Below, one piece after another: positions 1,436 through 55,234 of a stretch of DNA of 64,000 nucleotides. The notes under the pieces were generated by a model. The model saw nothing but the letters and a program-made list of their open reading frames with translations, was not told where the DNA came from and did no database searches. Position 1 is the stretch's first letter. Each line of letters begins with the position of its first letter. The stretch lies in NCBI GenBank assembly GCA_024401555.1, contig JAKSKV010000014.1, positions 14,442 to 78,441 of the forward strand. Reading direction: 5' to 3'. The DNA is from Paludibacteraceae bacterium (GTDB lineage Bacteria > Bacteroidota > Bacteroidia > Bacteroidales > Paludibacteraceae). Both the position numbers and the translations under genes were made by a program.

Positions 1436-1462
1436 CTAACCTCTGGAAAAAACAGAGAACTT

Positions 1463-2418: not shown

Positions 2419-2432
2419 AAAAACTTACGAAT

Positions 2433-2519: not shown

Positions 2520-2605
2520 GCCGACAGTCGGATCTACGATCAGTTGTTTACTCGCATTGTTCGTCTGCGGCTATGCTGCGTATTTAATTCAGAAGGGAGA
2601 CAACG

Positions 2606-2719
2606 ATGAAGAAGAACAATAAGAGCATGGAGGGTGTGGCCTGCTGCATAGCGGCTCTCGTATCCATCGCAATAGCTTCTTGCGCTATTGCGATTTTTGC
2701 TTTCTGGATAGTCAAGTAA
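2606..2719 (+). CDS. 37-aa membrane peptide (MKKNNKSMEGVACCIAALVSIAIASCAIAIFAFWIVK)
   Basis: ATG preceded by the purine-rich agaagggaga. Stop lies 3 nt before the next gene's ATG. One transmembrane helix. Confidence 0.3.
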   Translation: MKKNNKSMEGVACCIAALVSIAIASCAIAIFAFWIVK

Positions 2720-2722
2720 ACT

Positions 2723-3670
2723 ATGCAGCTGCTATTACAACAAGAGGAGTTCACAAAGTTGTCTTTCGCACAAAGGTCAGTCCTGATGGAGTTACTTATG
2801 TTCTCAAACGAGTTCGGAGTAGTGCAGAAGCTGGAAGGTCAGCTGTCGGCGGAAACCAACATCCCGAGGACATCGTTAAGGCGCATTTTAGAAGCTCTTA
2901 AAACAGCAGGTTATATTGAATTCCAAAATTCCAAACAAGATTCCAATGGACGAAAAGTGAAGTCTGTATCTATTTGTAATTTCGACAGTTACAAGTCGAT
3001 TCCAAGATTCCAAAATAATTTCCAAATCCAAGTTAGCAAACCTGGTCGCGGAGAGCTTGGCCCGTACATAAGATCAAAGGGATATAAGTTCACCGTGAAG
3101 TCATTCACTGACTACGAGAACGCTCATGCTTGGTCAGGAAACCAAGGAGACACATGGCAAGACCTCTGTGATAGATTTGCACTAACAGATGAGGCTGCGG
3201 CGAATGCAAACAGAAGAGACTTATTCACTCCGCCATCCGAAGACGAGGCGAAAGAGGTATACCGCGAAGGTGGGTATCACTTCGACATCGAGAAGTTCTA
3301 CTCGCATTATTCTTCTAACGGATGGAGGGTCGGAAGAGTCAAGATGTGTGATCTTCGTTCTGCGATGGATACTTGGGAGAAGAGCTACAAGGAGAGCCAT
3401 CCAGAAGCGTTCGTCGTTTCAGCTCCAAAGACAGCAGTCGAGTTAGAATACGAGAAGGCAATGGTCGAACGATTCCCAAGGCTGATGGCTGTGGCTTATC
3501 CGCTCACCCTGGCGCAGTACAATCATCTTAAAACCGAAGCGCTAAGCCGCAACGAAATAGACAAATTAGTAGGTGTCTTGACCAGACTAAACGGAGGAGA
3601 CCTGTCACGAGTTAAGGTGGCATATGACATCATATGCGCTATGATGAATTACGAAAAGAAGATACTATAA
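2723..3670 (+). CDS. replication initiator / helicase-loader-like protein with N-terminal winged-HTH
   Basis: LSAETNIPRTSLRRILEALKTAGYIEF is HTH-like. Its stop overlaps the dnaB start (TAATG), indicating translational coupling to the helicase. Confidence 0.45.
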   Translation: MQLLLQQEEFTKLSFAQRSVLMELLMFSNEFGVVQKLEGQLSAETNIPRTSLRRILEALKTAGYIEFQNSKQDSNGRKVKSVSICNFDSYKSIPRFQNNFQIQVSKPGRGELGPYIRSKGYKFTVKSFTDYENAHAWSGNQGDTWQDLCDRFALTDEAAANANRRDLFTPPSEDEAKEVYREGGYHFDIEKFYSHYSSNGWRVGRVKMCDLRSAMDTWEKSYKESHPEAFVVSAPKTAVELEYEKAMVERFPRLMAVAYPLTLAQYNHLKTEALSRNEIDKLVGVLTRLNGGDLSRVKVAYDIICAMMNYEKKIL

Positions 3671-22933: not shown

Positions 22934-23122
22934 TTATCCCCAAACTTTTGTATCCCAGCTGTCAACATCCCAAATCATGACGTCGCTATGATTAACGTCC
23001 ATCTTCCTCAGGACCTGCATGAGGGTGTTGACGGAACTATCAGTCATTCCACCTGAGTCCTGAATGCCTGACAACCTGAATGTACCGTCAGACGAGCTTC
23101 CGGTTACGTGTATCTTTTTCAT
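22934..23122 (-). CDS. hypothetical protein
   Basis: 62-aa ORF overlapping the upstream gene's stop by 4 nt. Confidence 0.4.
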   Translation of the reverse strand: MKKIHVTGSSSDGTFRLSGIQDSGGMTDSSVNTLMQVLRKMDVNHSDVMIWDVDSWDTKVWG

Positions 23123-37800: not shown

Positions 37801-40800
37801 CTTCTTGAAGATCATCTTACGGATCTCCTCAACGCCAACCTCCTGATCCTTGAGCTGGCTATAGTACTCCTGCAACTTCTGAAGAAGAGGAATGCCTGAC
37901 ATAGAGAACATCCTCAAGTGACGTGCATCAAGATAGCCCATCGACTCCATCTGGCCATACTCGTATGCGATACGTCCAAACTCTACGCCTACACCGGCAG
38001 CGATATCAGACAGTCGCTTGGTTGTGTCATAGAGCTCTTCGTACTCGATACCGAACGCAGACAGCTGCTTGGTGTTCTTCACCAAGTCCTGTACGTCGAA
38101 AGGAGACTTCATCGAGAGGTCAGCTACCTGCCTATAGATAGAATCAGCTTTTCTCTGATCCTGGAAGATGGAGCCCATTGCGAGCTGCTGACGCTCAAGC
38201 TCACCACCTATCTCAATAATCTTGTTGGCAAACTGCTGAAGACCGATGATAGAGAAAGCATTCTGGATATTCATCGCCAGCATCGACATCTGCTGGTCGA
38301 GCGACGTGATACTCTTCAATGTCTGAAGAGTCTGGCTGTCAAACGCCTTCTGTGCGTCTGCGGCATTGTACCAGGCATTCTTCGCCTTCTCGGCAATCAA
38401 GGTGGCGTCATCCCTCGAAGCATTCGACACGCGAACCCTCATTCCCTGAAGCAGGCCTTGCGCACCCTCGACAACCTGAGCAATTCTTGCAGAGTTTCCT
38501 GTAGCGAGAATCTCTCTTGCATACTTCAAGATACGTTCATACAAGGCAATCTGCTGCTCAAGATTCGTGACCTCCTTGTTGTTGGCAACTCGATTGTCGC
38601 GAATATTGTTCAGCTCCTTGACGCGCTGCTCGGTCTGGGAGATGAGTTTGTTAAGCTTCTCCTGGTTATCCTGCTTCGCCTTAGCATCGGCTTTTTGCTT
38701 TTTGTCCGAAGCCTCAATCTCCTTGGCGTAACCCTTCGCCTTTACCTTTTCTTCCTCAAAAAGCCTTTGTGCCTCCTGAAGCTTCCCTAAGGTTCCGTCA
38801 ATCTCAGCCTTGTTTACGGCAATGACAAGCTCACGACCGGAAAGGCGCATTATATCATCCAAGATGTCTCTCAAGGAAAGCAACATTGCTTTAGCCTCCT
38901 TGATGTCTACTGGCACGGAAAAATTTCCAGCCTTCTGAGGTTCTGCGTAAATGAGGTTGTGCATCAGATTGCTAACACCGTCGCGAATACTGCTTACGCG
39001 TTTCCTTGCTGCCTCCTCTTCGGCCCTCCACTGCTTGTTGTATGCAGCGGTCGAAGCCTCTGCCCTCTTCATCTGGGCTGCACGCTCCTGATCCTCGGCT
39101 TCCTGGCGCATCTTCATCAGCTTCTCCTGACGTGCTCGCTCGTCCTGGAAAGCCTTTTCGTTGGCTGCATTTTCCTTTTCTATACGGCGCTTAAGCCTTT
39201 CCTCGCGTCTCTCGTCGATTATACGCTGCCTTTGGTCTTCTCTCTTTGTTCGCTCTACAGCAAGATGATCTGCATTAAGCTTCTTTGCCTGCTCGTATGC
39301 ATTTCCGCTTTCCTGATGGAACAGTCTGTATGCCTCAGACAGCATCTTAAACGTTCCGTCAATCCTTGCGGTATCGACAGCGAGGACAAACTCTTTACCT
39401 GTGAGCTGCCTTATATCGTTAAGCTTAACCTCGAGTTGCGTGAGCATCTCAAGCGGCCTCGTTGTGTCAATTTGAACCTCGAACTTTCCTGATACGCGAG
39501 GCATGGCATTAGAAAACACATCAAGCGCAGTCTCGATTCCCTTTCGTACGCTGGTAATTCTGTCGTCCGCTCTCTTTACGGCAGCGGCAAGATTGTCTGC
39601 GGCAGTTGTTGCATTCTTGTCTGCAGTATCCCAGTTTACAGCCATTCGCCGCTGGTTCTGCAAATCGGCAAGTTTGGCCGTGCTGTTGGCAAGCAGCTCA
39701 TTCTTCTTAACAGTGTCGTTAACGGACTGCTCGACCTCCTTACGATAAGCTACATAACGCTCAAGCACAGCTTTCAGTTCGGTGGCTGTACCGTTCTTCT
39801 CCATAGCGGAACGAAGCTCGTTCTCGTTACGTCTTACAGTGTCAAGCAGCTTCTGATAACCTTCATCGATGCGCTGTCGTTCCTGTTCGAGCTGTGCGTC
39901 AGCGGCATTCTGATTTCTCTGTGACCCGAGCAGCGCATTGACGTTCTGTATCTCAGTGCGATACTCCATCGGGTTCTGCAGGAACTCACGCATCATGTGA
40001 GTCGTGCCAAGTCTCTCTGAAGCCACAAGGATGCCATTCATGGTATCCCACAACTTCTTGAGCTGATCGATGGCTGCGTTTACCTCTGGACCTTCGAACA
40101 AGCCAAGATTGCTCTTCTGACGCAAATCTCCAAGTTTGATCATCACCTCGTTCATTGCGAACAGGAACTTCTGACCGTCTCGCTCATTGAAGATTCCTTC
40201 AAACCAAGAAGTTGACCCAGAGAACGCATTCCTAAACTCGCCACCAAGCTTCGACGCCTGTTCCTTAAGCGAAGCAAAGAAATTCGCAAAGATATTGTAA
40301 TCCACTCCACCGATTTCGGTGGTTGTCTTCTGAATTACAGCTGGCAATCCAGCAAGTTCATCCTCGACCTCTTGTGCAACCTTCTTTTTTCCGCCTCCTT
40401 TGCTCTTGCCTATATTCTCGATAGCCTCGTTAATCTTAACAACAGACTCTGCCACCTGGTTGGCGACATTCTGAAGAGAAGCAACAAACGAATCAAGACC
40501 TTCTACGCTGCCAATACCAATCTTGCCTACATTTCCAAGGTTGATATTAGCAATCACATCCTTAATCTCGGTAAGAATAGCAAGAATCCTATCAAGTTGC
40601 TCAGGATTAAGGCCAGCTGTATTCTTGCTGATATCGATGCCTCCTTCAATTGAGTTCTTGTACTTATCAAGCTGCTTTGCTTTGTCAACGAAAGTATCGA
40701 ACACTGGAAGAATCTGTGTCAGCTTCTCGCAGTCTGTTATAAACTTTTCGAAACCTCCCTTTGTACCAGTAAGTGCAGCACTTGCGCTCTCCTTTCCAGC

Positions 40801-42555
40801 CTCGTTTTGCTTTTTTACAAAGTGATCAAGAGCCTTCTCTCCATCAGAGTATATCTGTTGAAGTCTATCCATGTGCTTCTCGATCTGAGAAACCATATTC
40901 GCAAATGCGGTAGAACCTGCATTGTCTGGAGAAAGCTTAACCTCTGAGTACTTATTAAGGAACTCGTCAAATACAGTCCTGTATCTTTCTACGAGAGGAA
41001 GCACTCGCTCCAGTCCAGCCTTCATTTGCGTGGCAGTAGCATCCCACTTGAACACATCGCCCTGTTCGCCGATTCCCTTGACTATTTCCTTGATGTAGCC
41101 AGTGCTTGACATCCTGCCAGCAGCATCAGTAATCTGTTTAGCGAGGGCCGGTGCAACAACAGCGCTATCAAGAGCTGTCTTCATGTCTACTATTGCATCC
41201 TTGACCTTCTGCGTTGCAGGTGCAAGCGCGAGCATCTTAGTCTGGATGTTGTCTATATGGTCATTCGCAATCGGGCCGAGCAGCTTAGAGATGCATGCAA
41301 TAGAAGAGTGCATCTTATCAATGCTTCCAACGATGGAATTTATCTGTTCCGGATTAAGACCTACAACATCCTGTGTTTTTTGCGCTCCTGCGTTCAAAGC
41401 TCCATTAACCGTAGCTCCGCTCGCATCGACACTTCCGACCTTCACATTCTCCAGCGTGAGCTGCACCTTCTTCAGCTCATTCTCAATCATCTGAATAGCC
41501 TCAGGCATGATGTGAGCCTCGCGGATATTAACGACGATCTTCTCAAGCTCAGATCTGATCATCTGGACCATCTTCTCCACCTCAACCTGAGTAGAGCCGA
41601 AGTCCTTGGGGAGCACGTCCTGGCCAACTCGTTTATAGAAGTCCTGACCTGCTCCATGCATAATCTGCTGGAGAGAGGTGCGAACCTGCTCAAGGTCGGT
41701 TACAACGGACTTCAAATCGGAAATACTGAGCCTTGAAGTGTCAAGAGATACGTTGCTGAGGTCGAAATGATGCTCCTTGATCTGGTTATAAATAGACTCC
41801 ATGGCAGTCTGAGAGACTGTCAGCTTACTCAATTCCGCCTCGAGTCCCTTCAAGGCGTCCTTGTTCAGTTTGTCGACCTCAAAGACCGGGATTACAGGAA
41901 GAGTGACAGATGTCTGGCTGATGAATCCTGGCTTGCTTATTTCTGCATGCAGCTGCTCTACGGCCGAACTGATCTGCATGATCCTCTTCAGCGCATTTTC
42001 TGTAGCATCTTGGCTGATAGGAGAAACGTCTCCCTTAGCAATATTCTTCATCAACCCCTCAATAACAATGCCGGACGACTGTAACTCTCGCAGCCATGTA
42101 GTGGCACTGTTATTGAACACTCTTCCAAATTCGGCTCCACCCTTCATGGACAGGATCTCGCCTCTCACTTTTCCAATTTCGTTAGCAAGATTCTCCGACA
42201 ACTTGATAGCGCCGCTCAGCATGTCACGAAGACCATCACCTCCGTTGCCTGATGCCTTGAAGTTGTTTACAGCCGCAATAATATCGTCAATTCCCTTTTT
42301 GACGCCACCGTCTATACTTGACGTACTAATGCTTTTAAGCCTGGTTTCAAAACCCTTCAACGCAGCCTCTGATACATTCACGCTCTTGCCAATATTCTCA
42401 AGAGCCGTCGTTGCATCTTTCAGAGCCTCGAAGTTCGAACTGAAGTTGAACTTGAAATTCTTCAGTGCATCAAGACGCTTTTCAATCGCGTCAAGCGCCT
42501 TGGTGTCACCAGCTTGTATACCAAGCTCGTAGAACAGTTTGCCTAATTCTGCCAT
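31867..42555 (-). CDS. tail tape measure protein, 3562 aa
   Basis: TP901-type TMP core: GGELERQQLAMGSIFQDQRKADSIYRQVADLSMKSPFDVQDLVKNTKQLSAFGIE...IAAGVGVEF (nt ~37846-38238). Two or three hydrophobic helices follow. Extensive coiled coil. Lies downstream of the G/GT chaperone genes. Confidence 0.85.
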   Translation of the reverse strand: MAELGKLFYELGIQAGDTKALDAIEKRLDALKNFKFNFSSNFEALKDATTALENIGKSVNVSEAALKGFETRLKSISTSSIDGGVKKGIDDIIAAVNNFKASGNGGDGLRDMLSGAIKLSENLANEIGKVRGEILSMKGGAEFGRVFNNSATTWLRELQSSGIVIEGLMKNIAKGDVSPISQDATENALKRIMQISSAVEQLHAEISKPGFISQTSVTLPVIPVFEVDKLNKDALKGLEAELSKLTVSQTAMESIYNQIKEHHFDLSNVSLDTSRLSISDLKSVVTDLEQVRTSLQQIMHGAGQDFYKRVGQDVLPKDFGSTQVEVEKMVQMIRSELEKIVVNIREAHIMPEAIQMIENELKKVQLTLENVKVGSVDASGATVNGALNAGAQKTQDVVGLNPEQINSIVGSIDKMHSSIACISKLLGPIANDHIDNIQTKMLALAPATQKVKDAIVDMKTALDSAVVAPALAKQITDAAGRMSSTGYIKEIVKGIGEQGDVFKWDATATQMKAGLERVLPLVERYRTVFDEFLNKYSEVKLSPDNAGSTAFANMVSQIEKHMDRLQQIYSDGEKALDHFVKKQNEAGKESASAALTGTKGGFEKFITDCEKLTQILPVFDTFVDKAKQLDKYKNSIEGGIDISKNTAGLNPEQLDRILAILTEIKDVIANINLGNVGKIGIGSVEGLDSFVASLQNVANQVAESVVKINEAIENIGKSKGGGKKKVAQEVEDELAGLPAVIQKTTTEIGGVDYNIFANFFASLKEQASKLGGEFRNAFSGSTSWFEGIFNERDGQKFLFAMNEVMIKLGDLRQKSNLGLFEGPEVNAAIDQLKKLWDTMNGILVASERLGTTHMMREFLQNPMEYRTEIQNVNALLGSQRNQNAADAQLEQERQRIDEGYQKLLDTVRRNENELRSAMEKNGTATELKAVLERYVAYRKEVEQSVNDTVKKNELLANSTAKLADLQNQRRMAVNWDTADKNATTAADNLAAAVKRADDRITSVRKGIETALDVFSNAMPRVSGKFEVQIDTTRPLEMLTQLEVKLNDIRQLTGKEFVLAVDTARIDGTFKMLSEAYRLFHQESGNAYEQAKKLNADHLAVERTKREDQRQRIIDERREERLKRRIEKENAANEKAFQDERARQEKLMKMRQEAEDQERAAQMKRAEASTAAYNKQWRAEEEAARKRVSSIRDGVSNLMHNLIYAEPQKAGNFSVPVDIKEAKAMLLSLRDILDDIMRLSGRELVIAVNKAEIDGTLGKLQEAQRLFEEEKVKAKGYAKEIEASDKKQKADAKAKQDNQEKLNKLISQTEQRVKELNNIRDNRVANNKEVTNLEQQIALYERILKYAREILATGNSARIAQVVEGAQGLLQGMRVRVSNASRDDATLIAEKAKNAWYNAADAQKAFDSQTLQTLKSITSLDQQMSMLAMNIQNAFSIIGLQQFANKIIEIGGELERQQLAMGSIFQDQRKADSIYRQVADLSMKSPFDVQDLVKNTKQLSAFGIEYEELYDTTKRLSDIAAGVGVEFGRIAYEYGQMESMGYLDARHLRMFSMSGIPLLQKLQEYYSQLKDQEVGVEEIRKMIFKKQIDAETVKSILRDMTNEGGAFYNMQEVMAESLASKWRNYANAQNLMYGEIAQGAAGEWLKDVAEVLTNMTEHWQDVARGIAVFTAAIGLAKIGTAGYAASQQLAAKAAEKSLLVEQGYAVTAAEELIAKNALTAADYNRLAASNALSRSQLVAAVATSNLSAAEKAAILTKMGLTEADVAYIVSTDGATAATVRLQYALMSVGKWLSANVWMVAAVAVAAVGTAIWNTYTEAHKLDNELEEIHDKMMNSYSAEANEIDRLCNKLHDETLSQEELDRVKDTIFSKYGQYLGNLNKEAASYDEVAAAATRAKDAIMAKLRMQMQDDQISAVNSNYDERIKSAREGTKSRLKSELKRIGYSTLDEDVISVMTSLEDMVIQRLSKSDIENRIRQMLGNDKFNLSNLTIGSASSILNPKFGFDVLNDLYGEKYAKIQKINNSIGHLPYQEVVDTIKKAWQKYIDEAANESSRKRIKAMMNASIARVLGGDKGKKYRSKDLGGNVIFELQGFDLDGEEVKKYLDEQESLQKDLENGWKNEADIFESGGSNIWSELKTHEGEGATEYFKRLAESRKKAKEELEADRKSVAAMEGNEISTGADIVKAIEENEKKVELIDFYESAIGRNFDDLLKGSNSTSSSKEENKELKEEREKLTNLKKLYDEYNKVLATSNSEQEAIDRFTKGEAGDRFQRAFGDLDVTDLSKFRKNFLGKIISEYNRIKDDPKLKEVASQYSDLISQFDNDQTSKDVTKSIDAFKRSFEEELESWDFFKSLVEDGMDRQKAYDLSLGKLKLSFEDFEFDEEMGNKLKSGAMELSEYLEAYLKSLVPSKIYEGKKEGVLWLLGMSKESIAEMLPAGKDSAYVAKIVTVIEALNKARKEAKNESDKLFFDVYKQFKTVTQILGDITEDAKKKIDAIDASEASPEEKERLRNAVRAKENWDLLEKGDQFYKFFNAALSLTKKEAESFAVELKNSLNAELRTGVIDADEYAKKIEEINAALNNIKNGKSNIVAYLSGGTSGLIDNKKSRASAKYKAATRDIQDAEEALRAATESGSESEMKAAKSALASAQGQQAAAEGSMAAAEGFGSTLAIVDLIVHGINNLIQGLKAAMENIDEMNDALGNDYNENSTGRTFLDAFSQASGQATSAFDSFKNGDIGGMISGVVGSFTKWVTVFAQHNDAELQEYIDRSKERVDDLKESLDRAKQSFKGFGYDGTAALERINSSYAQLSRQTNANHGSMTDTEELINDQLTGQSDIVDSLIEERDKLIERYQRYLEKAGANPSTSDWVKNLFGVEGESIVGGLAGGWIGAAIGNTIDLYGKLSAVFGQYEKKARNTEDDIWRVVEALNALNAVGIDSGSFSTATDLGKVYMTQYENLVLQRMEIESQLANEEEKKNTDDSAVEEYKNQINELNDEIRDFVENMYKDIYGLDLSTWASEIGDALTEAFAEGEDAVAAFDKTVDDLLRNVAKRIISQFVQVKYITPLMEEIFGKDGEGGIASLANPEESIQLIVARLAEWNKQVGSSITNDVDAILSGLEANGVPIKVDADTSSVFDGIKDDLKSALLDSEKTIEDMMKSISEKIAEGMIDSILDSEGINDKLDDWKERMDALMKKRTSMSEDEFLREIEKMKAEYQEIIEESKDAGDHVLKVLGLLDEINVEKITGMSFDSISDDFKSALMDMTSGVEDFTKNMKNMIGEAITQKMLDTLGYNSRLEEWLTKVANMVSESPTGELSKSQLDDLEAELNRISDDAGNDIQNVLLGLGIGVEELADKIREDFTGSTFDSMRDNFHSMLMDMDKGLNDFMDDLNEKFMDSALTQWMENSGFNEELKAWQDAWAQMSKSDGGLNSDEIAYLRSEYERLIAEAMAKRDELGEMTDYNKQKTSSMTSGIKSITEETANIIAAYVNGIRQDTSVTRDILEQFASSFNLNNVAASSQLAQLQQQTEYLRQINEASESMREGIDSMNGYMRGIATGSYSVRVK
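32287..33450 (-). repeat. four tandem ~97-116-aa repeats in the C-terminal part of the tape measure
   Basis: Units start at F3036 (FDKTVDDLLRNV), F3133 (FDGIKDDLKSALLD), F3247 (FDSISDDFKSALMD) and F3363 (FDSMRDNFHSMLMD). Each ends with a ...N..L..W... segment. The codons of all four starting Phe residues were checked against the DNA. Confidence 0.7.
38746..39573 (-). repeat. internal ~90-aa duplication in the tape measure (period ~189 aa)
   Basis: aa ~995-1085 (RADDRITSVRKGIETALDVF...GKEFVLAVDTARIDGTFKMLSEAYRLFHQE) against aa ~1184-1270 (RKRVSSIRDGVSNLMHNL...GRELVIAVNKAEIDGTLGKLQEAQRLFEEE). Confidence 0.65.
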
Positions 42556-46230: not shown

Positions 46231-47424
46231 TCAAGCACCTACGAGCGAGTCAACGTTCTGGTCGTTCTTGAAGGTGTAGTTGGCGTCGGCCGAGTAGATG
46301 AGCACATGCTTAGGATTGGTGATGACTGGGGTAGCCCAAGCCTCTGCCTCGATACGGTTGTATGCCTTGCGGATATCCCAAGTATTGAGGATGGCGATGA
46401 CGCCCTGCTCACCGACGAAGCTGAAGTTAGCCTCTGGGCCGTACTGAGCACGCTGGCTGATGTCCTCCCAGATAGAAGCCATAGGCTTGATCTCGAAGAG
46501 GTCAGTGCCAGACTGGCAGAGTACAAGGTTGCGCTCATAGAACGAAGCGGTATCAATCTTCTGCTTGCCGTCAATCTCGACAGCCGACTTCTCGTCAACG
46601 ACGAGAATCGATGCAACGCCGAGCTCATGCAGATACTGGAGAATCTCAGCCTCCTGGAGAATATAGCTCTCATTGAGCAGACCGTTGATTCGTGCGCGGC
46701 ACTTTGCAACAACCTTTGGATGGCTGATGAAGGCCTTGAACATCTTCTTGGTCATCTTCCAGTGGTCGAATGGCACTGGCTCAGGGAGGTTCTCAGCGAA
46801 CTCCTGTGCGTCGAGCAGGTCCTGAACTGGGTCAGCGGCCTCGTTTTCAACCCACTTGTCTGCGCCGTAGTTGAACCAAGAAACTGCAGTCTTGCCCTTG
46901 TTCTCGCCAGGGATGTTCTGCTCCTCCTTGATGAAAGTGCCGTCCTCAGAGAAGTCATAGATGTAACCCTCAGAGAGTGCCTTGTAAGCAAGAGAGGTTA
47001 TCTGGTTGTGGATACCGATGGTGAGGATCTCCGACTTGGCTACGAAGGTCTCGAGCATCATGTCAGCGAACTTGCCGGTATTGCCGTTGGCGACTGCGCG
47101 AATACGAAGGATATCGTTCTCGTCCATTGCTACGCCATGGCCCATCTTGTAGATAGAGCCTCCGTAGCTCTCCCAACCTGCGGTTGAACGGAGTGGCTTG
47201 TTAGCGCCTACGCTGATGTTTGAAGCCTTAGGAATCAGCTGACCCTGCTTCACGATGTTGCCCCATACTGGATTGGTGGTCTTAGTGCCGAAGTGACCGA
47301 ACTCCTGCCAGCCCTTGCCGTTATACTTGGCGTTGGCATCCTCATAGAAGGAACGCATGTCCTCGGGGGTGAGATAGCGGCGCAAGTCGAGCGCGGCTAC
47401 CTGTTCCATAGATAATGTTGCCAT
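46231..47424 (-). CDS. major capsid protein (candidate)
   Basis: 397 aa. Follows the scaffold-like and decoration-like genes and precedes the connectors. Confidence 0.65.
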   Translation of the reverse strand: MATLSMEQVAALDLRRYLTPEDMRSFYEDANAKYNGKGWQEFGHFGTKTTNPVWGNIVKQGQLIPKASNISVGANKPLRSTAGWESYGGSIYKMGHGVAMDENDILRIRAVANGNTGKFADMMLETFVAKSEILTIGIHNQITSLAYKALSEGYIYDFSEDGTFIKEEQNIPGENKGKTAVSWFNYGADKWVENEAADPVQDLLDAQEFAENLPEPVPFDHWKMTKKMFKAFISHPKVVAKCRARINGLLNESYILQEAEILQYLHELGVASILVVDEKSAVEIDGKQKIDTASFYERNLVLCQSGTDLFEIKPMASIWEDISQRAQYGPEANFSFVGEQGVIAILNTWDIRKAYNRIEAEAWATPVITNPKHVLIYSADANYTFKNDQNVDSLVGA

Positions 47425-49000: not shown

Positions 49001-49148
49001 TATAACGGTAGTAATAAATGTGAGTAACTCCACAACAGGTCTTTCCTCTTGTGGCGTGGATATAGGTATCAACAAGAAAACTCAGGGTGGTTCCCAATCA
49101 TAATCATGCGACAAAAATCCTATTCCAAATCTTTTTCTTCTTTTCCTG

Positions 49149-49220
49149 TGGCGGAGGATGGAATCGAACCATCGTCATCGTGGTTATGGGCCGCGCGAGC
49201 TACCTCTGCTCCACTCCGCT
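49149..49220 (-). tRNA. initiator-like tRNA-Met (anticodon CAT) with 1:72 mismatch
   Basis: Hand-folded sequence agcggag tg gagc agaggta gctc g cgcgg ccCATaa ccacg atgac gatgg ttcgatt ccatc ctccgcc a. The D arm matches the bacterial tRNA-fMet pattern (UGGAGCAG..GGUAGCUC). There is an A1-C72 mismatch and one C-A mismatch in the anticodon stem. Confidence 0.6.
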
Positions 49221-49409: not shown

Positions 49410-50117
49410 ATGGAATTCATCAACCATCACTCTGACTTCAAGGTTCTTGTGGAAGTCAAATCAAGAAGCCTCACGATGTATCCATTCGAGTTCACTTTCT
49501 TTACAACCAAAGGCGGAGAAACCGTAGTAGCAAAATACGACGGTTCATCGTTCTCTGGCTGCTCGAAAGTAGACGACAACCACATCATCGTGCCTTTCGA
49601 CAACCATCAGCTATCAACCGGCAGGCTCAAGTGCCGGCAGGAGACATTTATTCCTGACAGCGACTACCCGGACGGCGTAAAGAACGAGGTTACCGAAATT
49701 GCTTTCGACATCGAGCTTGTATGCGGCCCTTCAAGTACAGTCGATCCGATCTCTGCGGTTATCTCGCAAACAATCCTCAAACCAGTAAAGGGAGCAGACT
49801 ACTTTACACCAGAGGATGTCGAGGAATTCACAGACAAGATTGGAAGGCTTCTGCTTGCAGACGCTTCTTACATGCAGAGCGTAGCGAACAAGATTGCGTC
49901 TAACCAGTCATTTATCGATGACGTTGCTACATCTATTGTCGCGATGGAGACGTTCGCAAACGCGATTACAAACAAGCTCGCAGCAAGTTCACAGTTCGCA
50001 TCGAGTGTCGCTCCTATCGTAGAGAGCCAGGCCACTCCAACAATCATTAGTGAGCTTAAGGCTAACGAGACATTTATCGTTGCTGTAGCGAACAAGGTAG
50101 CTGATAAGCTTAACTAA
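49410..50117 (+). CDS. hypothetical protein (possible virion protein) with C-terminal short repeats
   Basis: 235 aa. The C-terminal ~90 aa contain repeating motifs: SFIDDVATSIV, TFANAITNKLA, QFASSVAPIV, TFIVAVANKVA. Confidence 0.4.
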   Translation: MEFINHHSDFKVLVEVKSRSLTMYPFEFTFFTTKGGETVVAKYDGSSFSGCSKVDDNHIIVPFDNHQLSTGRLKCRQETFIPDSDYPDGVKNEVTEIAFDIELVCGPSSTVDPISAVISQTILKPVKGADYFTPEDVEEFTDKIGRLLLADASYMQSVANKIASNQSFIDDVATSIVAMETFANAITNKLAASSQFASSVAPIVESQATPTIISELKANETFIVAVANKVADKLN

Positions 50118-50228: not shown

Positions 50229-51296
50229 ATGGAGAAAAAGATTGTTACAACGCGAAAAGGTTTAACATTTGAAGTTTACAAGGATGGAAGAATCTTCTAC
50301 AATGGAGAAGAAAGAATCCCTGCGTACTGTCATAGATTTAACAAGGACGGAAGTTTGTACAAGGTTGGCAGATATATTAACATAAAGGTAAACAAAAAAA
50401 ACAAGGCTACGTCTGCTGCAAAGCTTATGATGCTGGCCTTTATCGATGGATACGACGAATCGTTTATTGTTAAACACAAGGATGGAGACGTGTACAATTA
50501 CTCGTTGGATAATCTCTATTGCGAAGACATAAAGACAAAGTCAAACATAGATGGAGAAATATGGAAACCCGTGTCAGGGTTTGAGAAGCTATATGAAATA
50601 AGCAACATCGGAAGAATAAGGGTTCTCGATAAAAATGTAGTCGGACGAAAAGTTTTTGGAAAAATATTAGCACCAAAAAAGACGAGGAATGGATATTTGA
50701 TGATTCATCTCCACGGAGACGATGGCACTGAAAAGAACTGTCTTATTCATAGACTTGTTGCCGATGCTTTTATTCAAAATCCAGAAAACCTTCCGTGCGT
50801 AAATCATAAGGATTTCATAAGAACAAACAATAAAGTTGAAAACCTTGAATGGTGTACTTATTTATACAATCTTGAATACAGTAATGTTTTCGAGAGGATG
50901 TCAGAGGTCAAGTCCATTCCTGTAGTTCAAATGGACGAGAACTATAATGTGCTGGCGGAATACAAAAATTGCGGAGAGGCTGCAGAAGCAGTAGGAGGAT
51001 TAGAAGCAAATATAAGATCTTGTATATTCGGAGTCGCTGCAACTTCGTACGGTTACAGATGGAAATATAAAGACGAGTCAAGGAATAGAAAAAACACGAA
51101 AGAAGTGAGATTGAAGTCAGTTACAATGATGGACGATGACTGCAATATACTGCGTGTTTTCAAGTCTCCAGGAGAAGCTGGCAAAGAACTTGGAATATTC
51201 TCTACGTCAATCGTTTCCGTTTGTAGAGGAAAAAACAAACACGCTGGTGGGTATAGATGGAAATATACATACTTTGATAGCAAGCAATTGGTATAA
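50229..51296 (+). CDS. free-standing HNH homing endonuclease (NUMOD4 + HNH_3 + YGYRWKY-type DNA-binding repeats)
   Basis: IWKPVSGFEKLYEISNIGRIR (NUMOD4-like). IHRLVADAFIQNPENLPCVNHKDFIRTNNKVENLEW (HNH_3). Two C-terminal xGYRWKY modules. Confidence 0.8.
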   Translation: MEKKIVTTRKGLTFEVYKDGRIFYNGEERIPAYCHRFNKDGSLYKVGRYINIKVNKKNKATSAAKLMMLAFIDGYDESFIVKHKDGDVYNYSLDNLYCEDIKTKSNIDGEIWKPVSGFEKLYEISNIGRIRVLDKNVVGRKVFGKILAPKKTRNGYLMIHLHGDDGTEKNCLIHRLVADAFIQNPENLPCVNHKDFIRTNNKVENLEWCTYLYNLEYSNVFERMSEVKSIPVVQMDENYNVLAEYKNCGEAAEAVGGLEANIRSCIFGVAATSYGYRWKYKDESRNRKNTKEVRLKSVTMMDDDCNILRVFKSPGEAGKELGIFSTSIVSVCRGKNKHAGGYRWKYTYFDSKQLV

Positions 51297-51298: not shown

Positions 51299-53506
51299 AT
51301 GGAAGCAGAAATGAAAAGTACTGGGATCTTCGATACCAACGGTAACGAAATTCTTTCATACGATTACATCGAGCAACTCCGTGAAGAGGACGCAGAGCAG
51401 AAGAAAAAAAACTTCATCTGCGCCCAGCGCGGGGGCCAAGAACGTGTCCTTGCCAATAATGCAGACATTTGTATTACTGGAGGCAGCCGAGGAGGCCCGC
51501 TTGATGTTAATACTCTGGTAAACACAGTCGATGGCTATAAAAAGATTGACTCTTTGACAAGCGGAGACAAGGTGTATAAACCTGACGGAGAAATACAGGA
51601 GGTAGTTTTCAAAGAGTATCACGGAGATCTGCCATGCTACGAGCTAATATTTTCAAATGGCAGTTCTGTGGTTGCTTCTTATGACCATACTTGGTCTATT
51701 AGCATAAACGAAAGCGAAGAATTCGAGGACTATTCAACAGAAGACGTAATAGTCCTACTTGAAACAGACACTGTTAACTCGATTGATGTCCCGATGTCAT
51801 TCGAGACTGGAGATCGAGTCAAGATTACAGGAGCCAAATTCATAGGAAAAAGAGAATGTTGCTGCATCCATGTTGACGGAGAAGATATGCTCTTTGTTGT
51901 TAACGGTGGAATTGTCACTCACAATTCGAAATCTTTCTCAATACTACTCGAATGCGTAAAAGATGCACAAAATCCAAACTTCAACGCACTGATACTTAGG
52001 CGAGAGCTTCCAGATTTGGATTCGTTAATAAGAGACTCCAAGATTGTGCTGAAGGACTATGGACAGTATCTCAGTAGCGATAAGAGTATGTTGTGGCAGC
52101 TTGATGCGGGAGGTACAATTAAATTCAATTTCCATGCCGGCGCAACAGACGATTTTATCAAAAGATTCCAGGGAAAACAGTACTCACTTGTTGCAATCGA
52201 CGAGCTAACACACCTTGATGACATCAAGAAATTCTTCTATATTTTGACGTGTTTGCGTAACGCTCATGGTTTGAGGAACAGATTCATCGGGTCGTGCAAC
52301 CCTGATAGGAATTCATGGCTTCGAGGATTCATAGACTACTGGATCGGTAACCAAGACACCATATATTCAGACGGGAAAAAGCATCCAGAATGGGCAGGAT
52401 ATCCGATACCAGAAAGGAACGGAAAAGTTAGATACTGTTGTACTTCTGGTGCAGAGACTCTCGCCGATATTATATGGGGAGACACACGAGAAGAGGTATG
52501 GAAGAAGGCAAAACCAAGGGTTCAAGAGATAGGCGCATACTCTCCTGAAATGGAAGTATATGGTAAGCCAGAAGATCTCTTTGTTATGTCTGTTGCTTTC
52601 GTGGAGGCGAAACTTACCGATAACAAGAAGCTACTCGAAGGTGACCCAAGCTACATAGCTCGACTCGCCAACCAAAGTCGATCAAGCATCCTTGCCGACC
52701 TTCGAGGAAACTGGGATGCACAAGAGCTCGCCGAAGAAATGGTCACAGAAGAAGACATGAATCGATTCTTCAACAATCCAAGACAGGTGGGCGACGGAAT
52801 ACGAAGAATGAGTGATGACGTTGCTCTCGAAGGAGGCGACAACAACTGGCTTTGGCTAATCGAGGGCAACCACGTTATAGACGTTGATGTCTGCACGTTG
52901 AACTCTCAAGAACTTGTAGAACATATCGAGCAAAAACGAAGAGAATGGGGAGTGAACGAAGAGAACCTCACGTTCGACTCGAATGGCATTGGAGGTCTAT
53001 TAAAAGGATTCTTCAAGAGAGCAATCCCATTCAACAATCTTGAGTCTCCATACGGAGCTACAGATGCAGAAAAAGAGGCTGCAAAGCGAGATTATGACAC
53101 ACTAAAAAGCCAATGTATGGTTGATCTCGCAAAATGCTTTAAGTATGGTGAGATAAGCATAGCTCCGTACCTTCTTGATAGGCGATTCAGCGGAAAGGGT
53201 TTCGAGAACATGACGCTAAGAGACATATTGATGCAAGAACGTCGTGTAATAGCCATAGACCAGAAGAAGAAAGACCAGGGCAAGGGTCAGTGCATCATCC
53301 AGAAATCTGAAATGAAGAAACTTATCGGACGAAGCCCTGACTGCATGGAATCGCTGGCCTATTGGAGGATATTCAGCATCAAGAAGCCCGTTAAGAAAGT
53401 ATGGCGTCCTACCGGTGCAGCTACCTTCACATCAGGTTCTCACCCGTCATCAACTACAACCAGAGTTATTCCCGCCAACAGGCGTTTCGGAGTACGATAC
53501 ATATAA
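51299..53506 (+). CDS. terL: terminase large subunit (precursor containing an intein)
   Basis: P-loop GGSRGG / SKS split by the insert. Walker B-like LVAIDELTH. Nuclease-domain-sized C-terminal half. Located upstream of the portal gene. Confidence 0.8.
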   Translation: MEAEMKSTGIFDTNGNEILSYDYIEQLREEDAEQKKKNFICAQRGGQERVLANNADICITGGSRGGPLDVNTLVNTVDGYKKIDSLTSGDKVYKPDGEIQEVVFKEYHGDLPCYELIFSNGSSVVASYDHTWSISINESEEFEDYSTEDVIVLLETDTVNSIDVPMSFETGDRVKITGAKFIGKRECCCIHVDGEDMLFVVNGGIVTHNSKSFSILLECVKDAQNPNFNALILRRELPDLDSLIRDSKIVLKDYGQYLSSDKSMLWQLDAGGTIKFNFHAGATDDFIKRFQGKQYSLVAIDELTHLDDIKKFFYILTCLRNAHGLRNRFIGSCNPDRNSWLRGFIDYWIGNQDTIYSDGKKHPEWAGYPIPERNGKVRYCCTSGAETLADIIWGDTREEVWKKAKPRVQEIGAYSPEMEVYGKPEDLFVMSVAFVEAKLTDNKKLLEGDPSYIARLANQSRSSILADLRGNWDAQELAEEMVTEEDMNRFFNNPRQVGDGIRRMSDDVALEGGDNNWLWLIEGNHVIDVDVCTLNSQELVEHIEQKRREWGVNEENLTFDSNGIGGLLKGFFKRAIPFNNLESPYGATDAEKEAAKRDYDTLKSQCMVDLAKCFKYGEISIAPYLLDRRFSGKGFENMTLRDILMQERRVIAIDQKKKDQGKGQCIIQKSEMKKLIGRSPDCMESLAYWRIFSIKKPVKKVWRPTGAATFTSGSHPSSTTTRVIPANRRFGVRYI
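51497..51925 (+). mobile_element. 143-aa mini-intein (class 3-like) within terL
   Basis: Hint blocks: A is LDVNTLVNTVDGYKKIDSLTSGDKVY, B is VVASYDHTW, F is ECCCIHVDGEDMLFVVNG, G is GIVTHN followed by Ser+1. The boundary at residue 66/67 is uncertain by one residue. Confidence 0.7.
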
Positions 53507-53527: not shown

Positions 53528-55234
53528 ATGGAAATCAACAACTACGTTTCACTCTTCACCAAGAAGCAGTGGACAAAGATTCAACCCGTCGACGACATCA
53601 GCGTATTGAGTCAGGTTCCTTTTCCTGCCGGGCATGAGCCTCAGTACATTCCTGGAAAGGCGAAGTTTGTCGCTTATACACAGAGCGAGATGCTTTCTGA
53701 GTATTATCCGTCAGGACACAAGATAAACAGCACGCTATACTATCCAAACGTACACAGGGTGGTTGAAGAGCCGGAATACGATGCTCAAGGCAACCCCGTT
53801 ATTGACGAGAACGGCAACCAGGTAGTCGGCATGAAGCACTACGAGGAGATGCTTCCGCGTCACGCATTCGCCTTCCAGCAGATCATTGCAGCCGCACATG
53901 TATACCATGCTACTACGAACGACCTTCAGCATGAGCTCGCCATCGACGAGCCGACAGAGAAGGATGAGAAAACTTTCGAGCGTATCTGTGACGGTTGGAT
54001 AAAGGATGGAATGGAAGAGAAGTGGCACGAATTCTACACGGCTCGAGAGCATGTGGCAGAGGCAGCAATCGTTGGCCATATATCGAACATCCCGACATCT
54101 TACGACGACGACGGATTGCCTAAGACATTCAAGCAGTACAAGTCATTCCGCGTGTTGTCTTTCGAGAACGGCGACCAGCTCTTCCCTCAGTACGACGCAC
54201 AAGGCAGTCTCATCCTCTTCGGCCGTCTCACCCAGCAATACGACGAGAACGGCAGCATCTCAGACACCCTCGAAGTCTGGGACGAACAATATCTCACCAC
54301 ATATCGCAAAGGCGAAGGTGTCGAGCCTCGTACTGCCGGTCCTCTTCGCGGCATCTACGGCCTTGCAGAAGAGTGGCAGGTAGTATCACGCACCACACAC
54401 GGATTCCCATTCATCCCTGTCGCATATAACCGCAATGATAAGGGGCCAGGCTGGTGGGCTTCTCAAGACCTTTGCGACAACTACGAGCTTACGTTCTCTC
54501 AGATGGCACATAGCAACCAGGCGTTCGGAAACTCCATCCTTGTGCTAAAGTCTTCAGGAGAAGCAGTTCCTAACATCTCACGCGGTCTCGACGGCTCAAT
54601 CAAGACAATCTACATGGGCGAGAAGGATGAAGCCAAGTTCCTCGAAGGACAGTCTGCATCAGATTCGTACATCAGGCAGCTAGAAAAGACGGAGGAAATG
54701 ATTTATCGCTGCTCTAACATCGTAAAGTCTCCTAACGATCTGAAGTCTGGCGATACACCTGCAACAGCAATCAAGCTCCTCTTCACTCCTAACCTCATTC
54801 ACTGTACCGCCGACCTTGCAGCATGCCGTGATGCCATCAACCAGCTCTGGAAGATGTATGCCTTTGCCTTCGGTGTATGCGAGAAGGGCGAGAGCTTTAC
54901 CGAGTGCATGTCCCTGCCGGTCATCAACTACGCAGTGCCATACGTGCCACAGAGTGAATCAGCAGTAACAGCAGACCTCGTAGCCCTCGTTGGTGCAAAA
55001 ATTATTTCTAAGCAGACAGCTGCAGACAGGGCATCATTCTACTCTAAGCCTAATGAGCAGAAGAAGATACTTGCCGAGGAAAAGGCAGCAGACGACCAAG
55101 AGCTGGTTCATGAGATCAAGACCATCGAAGCACAGCGAAGGCTTAATCCCGAAAGCAATGGAGGTGGAGGTCTGTACAACGTCAACTCAGAAGGCAAGCG
55201 AGACGGTGACGGAGATGGTATCTACGACGAATAA
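53528..55234 (+). CDS. portal protein
   Basis: 568 aa, immediately downstream of terL. Overall pattern resembles SPP1-type portals. Acidic, Gly-rich C-terminal tail. Confidence 0.75.
   Translation: MEINNYVSLFTKKQWTKIQPVDDISVLSQVPFPAGHEPQYIPGKAKFVAYTQSEMLSEYYPSGHKINSTLYYPNVHRVVEEPEYDAQGNPVIDENGNQVVGMKHYEEMLPRHAFAFQQIIAAAHVYHATTNDLQHELAIDEPTEKDEKTFERICDGWIKDGMEEKWHEFYTAREHVAEAAIVGHISNIPTSYDDDGLPKTFKQYKSFRVLSFENGDQLFPQYDAQGSLILFGRLTQQYDENGSISDTLEVWDEQYLTTYRKGEGVEPRTAGPLRGIYGLAEEWQVVSRTTHGFPFIPVAYNRNDKGPGWWASQDLCDNYELTFSQMAHSNQAFGNSILVLKSSGEAVPNISRGLDGSIKTIYMGEKDEAKFLEGQSASDSYIRQLEKTEEMIYRCSNIVKSPNDLKSGDTPATAIKLLFTPNLIHCTADLAACRDAINQLWKMYAFAFGVCEKGESFTECMSLPVINYAVPYVPQSESAVTADLVALVGAKIISKQTAADRASFYSKPNEQKKILAEEKAADDQELVHEIKTIEAQRRLNPESNGGGGLYNVNSEGKRDGDGDGIYDE

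What the first reader, a model, noticed from the sequence alone, without database searches (positions are those of the whole stretch)
51497..51925. Class 3-like (Trp-Cys-Thr) mini-intein splitting the P-loop of the large terminase
The terL ORF reads ...ICITGGSRGG | PLDVNTLVNTVDGYKKIDSLTSGDKVYKPDGE ... VVASYDHTWSI ... KRECCCIHVDGEDMLFVVNGGIVTHN | SKSFSILLE... The 143-aa insert has Hint/intein blocks A, B, F and G and ends in His-Asn followed by Ser+1.

It has no Cys, Ser or Thr at position 1 (Pro67, or Gly66). It does have three other features. A Trp lies two residues after the block-B His. A Cys lies at the block-F position that is normally Asp (CC-C-IHV). A Thr precedes the terminal His-Asn. 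Together these form the WCT triplet that defines class 3 inteins, which splice through a branched thioester on the block-F Cys.

Excision would join GGSRGG to SKS and restore a Walker-A-like loop, so packaging ATPase activity should depend on protein splicing. The insert has no endonuclease domain.
Basis: partly seen in the sequence, partly recalled or inferred. Interest (0 to 1): 0.75.

Follow-up and report, generated by a model that had tools for sequence, protein, structure and literature searches.

The report
Class 3 mini-intein in phage terminase
The DNA-packaging enzyme gene of this gut phage is interrupted, inside its ATP-binding loop, by a small self-excising protein element (an intein) of a known type, so the finding is real but ordinary.

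Summary
The terL ORF (51299..53506, 735 aa) carries a 143-aa insert at exactly 51497..51925, covering Pro67 to Asn209 with Ser210 at +1.

- **Position:** intein-less relatives (Bacteroides phage LoVEphage, Dulem virus 40 and metagenomic alleles) show a clean 143-aa gap between GG.RGG and [S/T/G]K[S/T], the Walker A loop.
- **Fold:** the insert models as a confident HINT fold (pLDDT 96.7). Its best structural matches are the two solved class 3 inteins, MchDnaB-1 and MsmDnaBi1.
- **Class 3 signature:** every sequence feature is present: Pro1, His B:10, Trp B:12, Cys F:4, Thr G:5, His-Asn, Ser+1. These residues are invariant or nearly so across 112 related inteins at this locus. They also hold in about 125 of its 127 nearest relatives in a 1.8-billion-protein library.
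- **Mobility:** relatives range from 137 to 369 aa, and the long ones carry LAGLIDADG endonucleases. About half of the alleles in the window's own subclade lack the intein. This is the pattern of a mobile intein that has lost its endonuclease here.

Class 3 inteins were originally described as lying in helicases and phage large terminases, mostly at P-loops, and the prototype also starts with Pro. This is therefore a new member of a known kind. Splicing itself is inferred, not shown.

The parts
51299..53506 (+). terL precursor ORF: 735 aa, 83.3 kDa. The predicted spliced product is 592 aa, 67.5 kDa.
   Evidence: ORF list and translation. PHROG 979 'terminase large subunit' at E 1.6e-49. It is 44.5% identical to the annotated LoVEphage large terminase. 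The precursor AF2 model matches the Sf6 gp2, T4 gp17 and D6E TerL structures.
51299..51496 (+). N-extein (aa 1-66), ending in the first half of Walker A, GGSRGG (51479..51496). Gly66 is the -1 residue.
   Evidence: Alignment with intein-less TerLs. A beta-strand at aa 57-61 immediately precedes the junction in the AF2 precursor model.
51497..51925 (+). Mini-intein: 143 aa, 15.9 kDa, Pro67 to Asn209. It has a HINT fold and no endonuclease domain.
   Evidence: Clean 143-aa gap in intein-less homologues. AF2 pLDDT 96.7 and pTM 0.88. The seven best Foldseek matches are class 3 inteins 6riy, 6rix and 6bs8, at E 2e-9 to 9e-9 and TM 0.75-0.88. phmmer gave 2224 hits.
51497..51535 (+). Block A (PLDVNTLVNTVDG). 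Pro67 is intein residue 1 and is not a nucleophile.
   Evidence: Pro1, Leu2 and Thr6 are invariant in the 16-member alignment. Pro1 occurs in 108 of 112 family inteins.
51659..51700 (+). Block B (GSSVVASYDHTWSI): Ser127 = B:7, Asp129 = B:9, His130 = B:10, Trp132 = B:12, the W of the WCT triplet.
   Evidence: S..DH.W is present in 112 of 112 family inteins. It aligns with ADAAHQW of MchDnaB-1.
51701..51853 (+). Linker between blocks B and F (aa 135-185), at the place where longer relatives carry a LAGLIDADG endonuclease. A small structured strand-helix-strand element is retained.
   Evidence: Alignment A2 places the size differences here. Relatives of 310-369 aa carry PF14528 or PF05204. The AF2 model shows a helix at intein residues 81-89 with pLDDT above 90.
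51854..51901 (+). Block F (ECCCIHVDGEDMLFVV). Cys189 = F:4, the predicted branch-point nucleophile. Cys187 = F:2 and Cys188 = F:3.
   Evidence: Cys189 aligns with the F:4 Cys of MchDnaB-1. In the family, F:4 is Cys in 112 of 112, F:2 in 106 of 112 and F:3 in 106 of 112.
51905..51928 (+). Block G plus the +1 residue (GGIVTHN|S): Thr207 = G:5, His208 = G:6, Asn209 = G:7, Ser210 = +1.
   Evidence: The ending is THN in 110 of 112 family inteins and AHN in the other 2. The +1 residue is Ser or Thr in all 112.
51926..53506 (+). C-extein, containing:
- the second half of Walker A, SKS (51926..51934)
- Walker B, LVAIDE (52187..52204)
- the coupling motif GSCNP (52289..52303)
- the C-terminal nuclease domain
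   Evidence: A helix at aa 213-220 follows the junction directly. The spliced sequence extends the Terminase_6N match to profile positions 4-153. Walker B and the C-motif align weakly with T4-like gp17. The nuclease domain matches PDB 8dkr.
50229..51296 (+). Neighbouring free-standing HNH homing endonuclease (355 aa, I-HmuI-like). It is not part of the intein. It is listed because it abuts terL and bears on the novel reading.
   Evidence: Pfam NUMOD4 at 8.6e-15, plus HNH_3 and I-HmuI_NUMOD-like. phrog_59 at 9.5e-47. It is absent upstream of terL in five relatives.

Best explanation
This is a class 3 mini-intein in the P-loop (Walker A) of the large terminase of a LoVEphage-like gut phage, probably one that infects Bacteroidales.

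**Origin.** It descends from a larger, LAGLIDADG-bearing mobile intein that targets this site, and it has lost its endonuclease.

**Inferred splicing route (class 3).** The translated 83-kDa precursor cannot form a normal ATP-binding loop. It is predicted to splice as follows:
1. The block F Cys189 attacks the Gly66-Pro67 peptide bond and takes the N-extein onto its thiol, forming the block F branched thioester.
2. The N-extein is passed to the hydroxyl of Ser210 (+1), forming the block G branched ester.
3. Asn209 cyclises and releases the 15.9-kDa intein.
4. An O-to-N acyl shift makes the Gly66-Ser210 peptide bond.

The product is a 592-aa TerL with the family's native Walker A, GGSRGGSKS.

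**Shown here:** the anatomy, the homology, the fold, the conservation of catalytic residues, the insertion site and the sporadic distribution.

**Inferred:** that splicing happens, that it uses the class 3 route, and that packaging ATPase activity needs it.
For: **Insertion site**
- There is a clean 143-aa gap between GG.RGG and [S/G]K[S/T] against the LoVEphage and Dulem virus 40 TerLs.
- Of 100 intein-less alleles, 97 read GG.RGG followed directly by xK[S/T] (T 50, S 42, G 4, A 1). The other 3 have a variant motif.
- In the precursor model, beta-strand 57-61 runs into the junction and helix 213-220 follows it. This is the strand, loop and helix order of a P-loop ATPase.
- The precursor model matches both large-terminase structures and intein structures.

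**Intein identity**
- PDB sequence hits are the MchDnaB-1 and MsmDnaBi1 class 3 inteins and the gp41-1 intein.
- The AF2 model has pLDDT 96.7, and the seven best Foldseek matches are class 3 inteins.

**Class 3 signature**
- Pro1, Ser B:7, His B:10, Trp B:12, Cys F:4, Thr G:5, His-Asn and Ser+1 are all present.
- In 112 inteins at this locus: Trp 112, F:4 Cys 112, Thr 110, His-Asn 112, +1 Ser/Thr 112. Mean column identity is only 33% across a 16-member subset of them, so selection acts on the splicing residues.
- In the 127 nearest relatives from a 1.84-billion-protein library: Trp 125, Cys 126, Thr 125. Position 1 is Ala in 64 and Pro in 35.

**Mobility**
- Inteins at the same site range from 137 to 369 aa. 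The long ones carry LAGLIDADG_3 or Hom_end domains.
- Alleles with and without the intein interleave in the extein clustering.
- In the window's subclade, 10 of 21 protein clusters carry the intein.

**Precedent**
- Class 3 mechanism and signature, and the Pro1 prototype (PMC2807308).
- Class 3 mini-inteins of 139-145 aa shown to splice (PMC5222942).
Against: - No biochemical data exist. The sequence comes from a single metagenomic contig (Logan SRR17543907), so it could be a defective genome.
- Pfam Hint models match only the N-terminal part and fall below threshold.
- The Walker A assignment rests on the motif, its spacing to Walker B, a sub-threshold Terminase_6N match (20.7 bits against a cut-off of 22) and the AF2 secondary structure. 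No residue-level alignment to a solved TerL ATPase domain was obtained: searches hit only the nuclease domain, and one search was weak.
- The signature does not guarantee activity. One putative class 3 intein is an inactive pseudogene, but it lacks both the F:4 Cys and the B:10 His (PMC3196547), and both are present here.
Confidence: 0.85

Rival explanations
1. It is a decayed, splicing-dead intein in a defective or mis-assembled phage genome. TerL would then be non-functional.
For: The sequence comes from one metagenomic contig in one sample. It has no close relative: the extein is at most 60% identical, and the intein at most 46% identical, to anything else. An inactive putative class 3 intein is on record (PMC3196547).
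Against: - Every catalytic position is intact, and each is invariant across 112 relatives that have otherwise diverged to about 33% identity.
- The ORF is uninterrupted.
- The contig is a 71-kb phage genome with intact portal and major head genes next to terL.
- The documented pseudogene lacked both the F:4 Cys and the B:10 His. Both are present here.
Confidence: 0.06
2. It is an active intein that splices by another route. One option is class 2-like direct attack of Ser210 on the Gly66-Pro67 amide. Another is use of Cys187 or Cys188 as the branch point instead of Cys189.
For: There are three adjacent cysteines. Cys at F:2 is conserved in 106 of 112 family members and occurs in 44 of 127 distant relatives. 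The mechanism is inferred from sequence only.
Against: - Only the F:4 Cys is invariant. F:2 is Val in 6 members, and F:3 is Tyr, Arg or Ala in 6.
- Cys189 aligns with the catalytic Cys of MchDnaB-1.
- Published class 3 mini-inteins could not use the class 2 route when the F:4 Cys was mutated (PMC5222942).
Confidence: 0.05
3. It is a permanent, non-splicing structural insertion in the terminase ATPase domain.
For: None beyond the absence of experimental proof of splicing.
Against: - Homologues lack the segment entirely, or carry versions of 137-369 aa that include homing endonucleases.
- The segment splits the Walker A loop.
- It has a complete set of intein catalytic residues and a HINT fold.
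Confidence: 0.01

Closest known systems
Mycobacteriophage Bethlehem (MP-Be) DnaB intein, the class 3 prototype (Tori et al. 2010, PMC2807308)
   Same: It has Pro at position 1, Ser at B:7, His B:10, Trp B:12, Cys F:4, Thr-His-Asn at the C-terminus and a hydroxyl residue at +1. It lies in a phage ATPase.
   Different: MP-Be is 341 aa with a LAGLIDADG endonuclease and sits in a DnaB helicase after Gln, with Thr at +1. The intein here is 143 aa, has no endonuclease, sits in TerL after Gly, and has Ser at +1.
MsmDnaBi1 and MchDnaB-1 class 3 mini-inteins (PDB 6bs8, 6rix, 6riy; PMC6195587, PMC7664689)
   Same: They are the best sequence and structure matches: E 3e-4 by sequence and about 2e-9 by Foldseek, TM 0.75-0.88. 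They are 139-145 aa with no endonuclease and carry the WCT triplet. A Cys in the 'PCY' strand (Cys113 here) aligns with Msm Cys48.
   Different: They are bacterial DnaB inteins that start with Ala and have Asp at B:7 (the DxxH motif). Identity is only about 23-25%. The Cys48-equivalent position holds several different residues within the present family.
Escherichia phage ECD7 (Krischvirus, T4-like) gp17 TerL intein, in GenBank NC_041936
   Same: It has a class 3 signature (Ala1, DHIW, VKCIQV, PTHN|T) inside the TerL Walker A, SRQLGK|T. It is 36% identical over blocks A-B.
   Different: It is inserted one position further on, between Lys and Thr. It is full-length with a LAGLIDADG domain and lies in a distant TerL family. 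The record annotates the whole ORF as terminase large subunit, with no separate intein feature in the table returned.
Mycobacteriophage TerL inteins (Kelley et al. 2016, PMC5050341; 2025 survey, bioRxiv 10.1101/2025.01.02.630785)
   Same: Phage TerL ATPase domains are the main intein hosts. There are two P-loop insertion sites one residue apart, and TerL carries both class 1 and class 3 inteins.
   Different: The passages read name TerL1-c, -d and -e as class 3 inteins. Those sites lie outside the P-loop, in a helix and at Walker B. The class of the two P-loop inteins (sites a and b) was not stated in those passages. The hosts are actinobacteriophages, not phages of gut Bacteroidales.
TerL inteins of crAss-like gut phages (Yutin et al. 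2021, PMC7886860)
   Same: They are inteins in TerL of uncultured gut phages of Bacteroidetes.
   Different: They lie in a different phage order and TerL family. They are described as Hint-Hop inteins, and in the passages read the splicing class was not analysed.

Membership tests
Intein (HINT-fold protein-splicing element) | A HINT fold with splicing blocks A, B, F and G | tested here: met
   The AF2 model has pLDDT 96.7. Foldseek gave 55 PDB hits at E<=1e-3, and all 50 rows listed are inteins or other HINT domains. The blocks were located by alignment.
Intein (HINT-fold protein-splicing element) | In-frame insertion at a conserved site of a host protein, where homologues lack it and the flanks join into the native sequence | tested here: met
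   There is a clean 143-aa gap at Walker A against LoVEphage, Dulem virus 40 and about 100 metagenomic intein-less alleles.
Intein (HINT-fold protein-splicing element) | A C-terminal Asn (with penultimate His) followed by Ser, Thr or Cys at +1 | tested here: met
   His208-Asn209|Ser210. This holds in 112 of 112 relatives.
Intein (HINT-fold protein-splicing element) | Excision with ligation of the exteins (protein splicing) | not testable with these tools
   It requires expression and protein analysis.
Class 3 intein | No Cys, Ser or Thr nucleophile at intein position 1 | tested here: met
   Pro67 is position 1. The boundary is fixed by the gap edges and by alignment to intein structures.
Class 3 intein | Trp at block B position 12, two residues after the B:10 His | tested here: met
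   His130-Thr-Trp132. Trp is present in 112 of 112 family members and 125 of 127 distant relatives.
Class 3 intein | Cys at block F position 4 | tested here: met
   Cys189 aligns with the F:4 Cys of MchDnaB-1. It is Cys in 112 of 112 and 126 of 127.
Class 3 intein | Thr at block G position 5 | tested here: met
   Thr207. It is Thr in 110 of 112 and 125 of 127.
Class 3 intein | Relatedness to established class 3 inteins | tested here: met
   The best PDB sequence and fold matches are class 3 inteins, and the nearest 127 relatives carry the signature. No formal phylogeny was built.
Class 3 intein | Splicing through a block F branched thioester, with an absolute requirement for the F:4 Cys | not testable with these tools
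   It requires the C189A mutant and trapping of the intermediate.
Mini-intein | No homing endonuclease domain between blocks B and F | tested here: met
   The intein is 143 aa, Pfam finds no endonuclease, and the model is a compact HINT fold.
Phage terminase large subunit (Terminase_6-type) | An N-terminal ATPase with Walker A, Walker B and a coupling motif, plus a C-terminal RNase H-like nuclease | tested here: met
   PHROG 979 at 1.6e-49. Homologues carry PF03237. Foldseek matches Sf6 gp2, T4 gp17 and D6E TerL. The nuclease domain matches 8dkr. The window protein's own Pfam score is just under the cut-off.

The most novel reading that the evidence does not exclude
The free-standing I-HmuI-like HNH endonuclease gene that ends 2 nt before terL (50229..51296) may stand in for the LAGLIDADG domain that this mini-intein lost. 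It would cut intein-less terL alleles of co-infecting relatives, so that repair copies the HNH gene and the nearby intein together. This would be 'collaborative homing', a model I recall, without having checked it here, from free-standing endonucleases paired with endonuclease-less group I introns. I know of no demonstration of it for an intein. A milder variant is that the Cys187-188-189 cluster, with Cys113 aligning to Msm Cys48, makes splicing redox-gated as in MsmDnaBi1. Terminase activation would then depend on a reducing cytoplasm.
Probability: 0.07. Interest if true: 0.55.

Novelty: new member of a known kind. Interest (0 to 1): 0.3.

Why it matters
**For annotation.** This terL, and many related gut-phage terL genes, encode a precursor and not the mature enzyme. 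Alignments, phylogenies and structure predictions of this common phage marker gene should use the spliced sequence.

**For intein biology.**
- It extends the class 3 lineage from actinobacteria and their phages into a large group of LoVEphage-like gut phages. Class 3 inteins were proposed to be of phage origin.
- One P-loop there holds a full decay series, from 369-aa endonuclease-bearing inteins down to 137-aa mini-inteins.
- A second insertion site lies two residues downstream.

**For protein engineering.** Compact class 3 mini-inteins with Pro1 and Ser+1 are of some interest as tools.

None of this changes current understanding.

Tried and rejected
- **Word-indexed search with the intein alone** found nothing. 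The exhaustive phmmer search replaced it.
- **Pfam Hint models** gave only sub-threshold N-terminal matches, so Pfam alone would not call this an intein.
- **Residue-level alignment of the spliced Walker A to a solved TerL ATPase.** A single-sequence search and a profile search hit only the E217 nuclease domain. hhalign against spliced ECD7 gp17 aligned only Walker B and the C-motif, at E 0.11. The P-loop assignment therefore rests on the motif, its spacing, Pfam coordinates and the AF2 secondary structure.
The full precursor was modelled instead. It has pLDDT below 50 at residues 63-67, 194-198 and 204-210, at or near the two junctions, and pTM 0.49, so the relative orientation of the domains is unreliable.
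- **Prevalence.** The first family search (107 of 120 with the intein) was biased because the query contained the intein. A search with the spliced sequence leans the other way. Only the subclade figure, 10 of 21, is used.
- **A link between the upstream HNH gene and the intein.** No HNH gene lies upstream of terL in four relatives or in LoVEphage. Adjacency in this window is the only support.
- **The CCC run as a distinctive feature.** Cys at F:2 is common among class 3 relatives (44 of 127), so only the middle Cys is family-specific.
- **An intron or other RNA element in terL** is ruled out by Rfam.
- **dN/dS** was not attempted, because the closest intein is only 46% identical.
Full report
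**1. The observation**

The + strand ORF 51299..53506 is uninterrupted and 735 aa long. PHROGs identifies it as a terminase large subunit (phrog_979, E 1.6e-49). A SPP1-type portal gene follows it at 53528..55234. A major head protein gene lies upstream on the other strand at 46231..47424.

The window is part of a 71,331-bp Logan contig from one sample, SRR17543907. Its closest annotated relative is Bacteroides phage LoVEphage, at 44.5% TerL identity.

**2. The insert lies in the Walker A loop**

Alignment with the intein-less TerLs of LoVEphage and Dulem virus 40 gives one clean 143-column gap. Its flanks are ...I.GG.RGG and [S/G]K[S/T]....

Among 100 further intein-less metagenomic alleles, 97 read GG.RGG followed directly by xK[S/T], with x = Thr 50, Ser 42, Gly 4, Ala 1. 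The family's native Walker A therefore has a hydroxyl residue where the textbook motif has Gly. The intein uses that pre-existing residue as its +1 nucleophile.

Supporting evidence for the P-loop assignment:
- In-silico splicing extends the Pfam Terminase_6N match from profile position 10 to position 4 and raises the score from 17.9 to 20.7 bits. That is still just under the cut-off of 22.
- Walker B (LVAIDE, aa 297-302) lies about 90 residues after the Walker A Lys, and the coupling motif (GSCNP) about 30 residues further on. From memory, not tested here, this matches the spacing in T4 gp17.
- Walker B and the coupling motif align, weakly, with those of a T4-like gp17.
- The AF2 precursor model (pLDDT 77.9) puts beta-strand 57-61 just before the junction and helix 213-220 just after it. 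This is the strand, loop and helix order of a P-loop ATPase.
- The precursor model matches both large-terminase structures (Sf6 gp2, T4 gp17, D6E) and intein structures.

I could not get a residue-level sequence alignment to a solved TerL ATPase domain.

**3. The insert is an intein**

- The only PDB sequence hits to this stretch are inteins: MchDnaB-1, MsmDnaBi1 and gp41-1.
- An exhaustive phmmer search of 1.84 billion representative proteins gave 2224 hits at E<=1e-3. Many fall into two stretches, as expected when an endonuclease splits the splicing domain.
- AF2 with a 16-sequence alignment gave pLDDT 96.7 and pTM 0.88.
- Foldseek against the PDB returned 55 hits at E<=1e-3, and all 50 listed are inteins or other HINT domains. 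The first seven are the two solved class 3 inteins, at E 2e-9 to 9e-9 and TM 0.75-0.88.
- Pfam finds no endonuclease domain in the insert.
- Rfam finds no intron in the region.

**4. It carries the class 3 signature**

The literature defines class 3 inteins by two things. One is a non-nucleophilic residue 1. [quoted passage not shown]

In this intein:

| Position | Residue |
|---|---|
| 1 | Pro67 |
| B:7 | Ser127 |
| B:10 | His130 |
| B:12 | Trp132 |
| F:4 | Cys189 |
| G:5 | Thr207 |
| G:6-G:7 | His208-Asn209 |
| +1 | Ser210 |

Cys189 aligns with the catalytic Cys of MchDnaB-1 in HMMER's alignment (coordinates).

The prototype MP-Be DnaB intein likewise begins with Pro1 and has Ser at B:7 and Thr at +1.

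**5. Family evidence**

TerL searches returned 112 inteins at this locus, 92 of them unique sequences. A set of 42 representatives chosen at under 80% mutual identity supplied the 16-member alignment, whose mean column identity is 33%. The residue counts are:

| Feature | Count out of 112 |
|---|---|
| S..DH.W (block B) | 112 |
| Cys at F:4 | 112 |
| Thr at G:5 | 110 (Ala in 2) |
| His-Asn at the C-terminus | 112 |
| Ser or Thr at +1 | 112 |
| Pro at position 1 | 108 |

This pattern is what purifying selection on splicing residues would produce.

The 127 nearest relatives elsewhere in the protein universe are almost all of class 3 type:
- Trp 125, Cys 126, Thr 125.
- Position 1 is Ala in 64 and Pro in 35.
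- Many follow a Lys, consistent with P-loop insertion.

**6. It is a decayed mobile element**

Inteins at the same site measure 137-150, 179, 217-249, 310-311 and 361-369 aa. The 361-369-aa versions carry LAGLIDADG_3 or Hom_end domains. The length differences fall between blocks B and F. Several different deletion sizes suggest repeated endonuclease loss.

In an extein-based clustering, intein-free and intein-bearing alleles interleave.

A search with the spliced sequence shows that 10 of the 21 protein clusters in the window's own subclade (at least 50% identity) carry the intein and 11 do not. The figure of 107 of 120 from the first search was inflated, because that query contained the intein.

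The intein's G+C content is 40.8%, against 45.2% for the extein and 46.6% for the window.

**7. Mechanism**

The inferred route is the class 3 pathway:
1. Cys189 attacks the Gly66-Pro67 bond and forms the block F thioester branch.
2. The N-extein transfers to Ser210.
3. Asn209 cyclises and releases the intein.
4. An O-to-N acyl shift forms the peptide bond.

The products would be a 67.5-kDa TerL with GGSRGGSKS and a 15.9-kDa intein. Class 3 mini-inteins of 139-145 aa have been shown to splice this way and to require the F:4 Cys absolutely. Nothing here demonstrates splicing of this particular protein.

**8. Comparison with what is known, and novelty**

- The founding class 3 paper already notes that such inteins occur in DnaB, RecG, SNF2 and phage terminase large subunits, mostly at ATPase P-loops.
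- Mycobacteriophage TerLs carry class 3 inteins and have two P-loop insertion sites.
- GenBank's Escherichia phage ECD7 gp17 contains a class 3-signature intein in SRQLGK|T.
- A human-gut phage scaffold carries a class 3 mini-intein in the P-loop (GSNGSGK|A...) of an 832-aa ORF that was not characterised further.
- TerL inteins are reported in crAss-like gut phages.
- The LoVEphage paper does not mention inteins, and no record in the 50,697-record phage collection carries a close copy.

This is therefore a new member, and evidence of a sizeable undescribed clade, of a known kind.

**9. Speculative extensions**

A free-standing I-HmuI-like HNH endonuclease gene abuts terL. Five relatives lack it, so a role in mobilising the mini-intein rests on adjacency alone.

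Cys113 aligns with Msm Cys48, which forms a regulatory disulfide with the F:4 Cys in MsmDnaBi1. That position holds several different residues in this family, and Cys at F:2 is common in class 3 relatives. Redox gating is possible but unsupported.

Noticed in passing
window 50229..51296 (+): A free-standing 355-aa HNH homing endonuclease (NUMOD4, HNH_3, NUMOD1, I-HmuI_NUMOD-like; phrog_59 at 9.5e-47). Its stop codon lies 2 nt before the terL start. It and the 235-aa ORF at 49410..50117 (no family match) are absent from this position in LoVEphage and in four metagenomic relatives, so they look like an insertion.
   Followed up: partly
relatives P0031, P0081, P0103, P0107 and P0022 (TerL homologues): There is a second intein site two residues downstream in the same P-loop (GGSRGGSK|...THN|S/T). 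Four of these inteins start with Cys1 yet keep Trp B:12, Cys F:4 and Thr G:5. One (P0022) has Pro1. They are clearly related to the inteins at the first site, which suggests the intein moved between adjacent positions.
   Followed up: partly
intein-less TerL alleles P0267-P0366; window 51479..51496 and 51926..51934: This TerL family's Walker A is GG[S/C]RGG[S/T]K[S/T]. Ser or Thr replaces the canonical Gly before the Lys in 92 of 100 intein-free alleles, and Gly is rare. The hydroxyl residue the intein needs at +1 is therefore native to the family.
   Followed up: yes
window 31867..42555 (-) and 23119..28098 (-): Two very large ORFs, of 3,562 aa and 1,659 aa, have no Pfam match at E<=1e-3. The neighbouring 766-aa ORF (18554..20854, -) has a calcineurin-like phosphoesterase domain and a weak collagen-repeat match.
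   Followed up: partly
window 942..1536 (+) and 49148..49220 (-): There are five tRNA genes: Arg-CCT, Thr-TGT, Met-CAT and Glu-TTC in a cluster, plus a second Met-CAT between the head module and the ORFs upstream of terL. LoVEphage also has a tRNA array next to terL.
   Followed up: no
L007 (GenBank MT835601, human faecal phage scaffold), ORF 2276..4774: An unannotated 832-aa ORF carries a class 3-signature mini-intein in its P-loop (GSNGSGK|ALTMD...SHLW...QQCITV...PTHN|S). The host protein itself was not characterised. The intein is 28% identical to the window's.
   Followed up: no
window 51863..51865 and flanking codons (Cys187-Cys188-Cys189); 51635..51637 (Cys113): Three consecutive cysteines in block F occur in 100 of 112 family inteins. 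Cys113 aligns with Cys48 of MsmDnaBi1, the partner of the catalytic Cys in that intein's oxidative-stress disulfide. That position holds several different residues within this family.
   Followed up: partly
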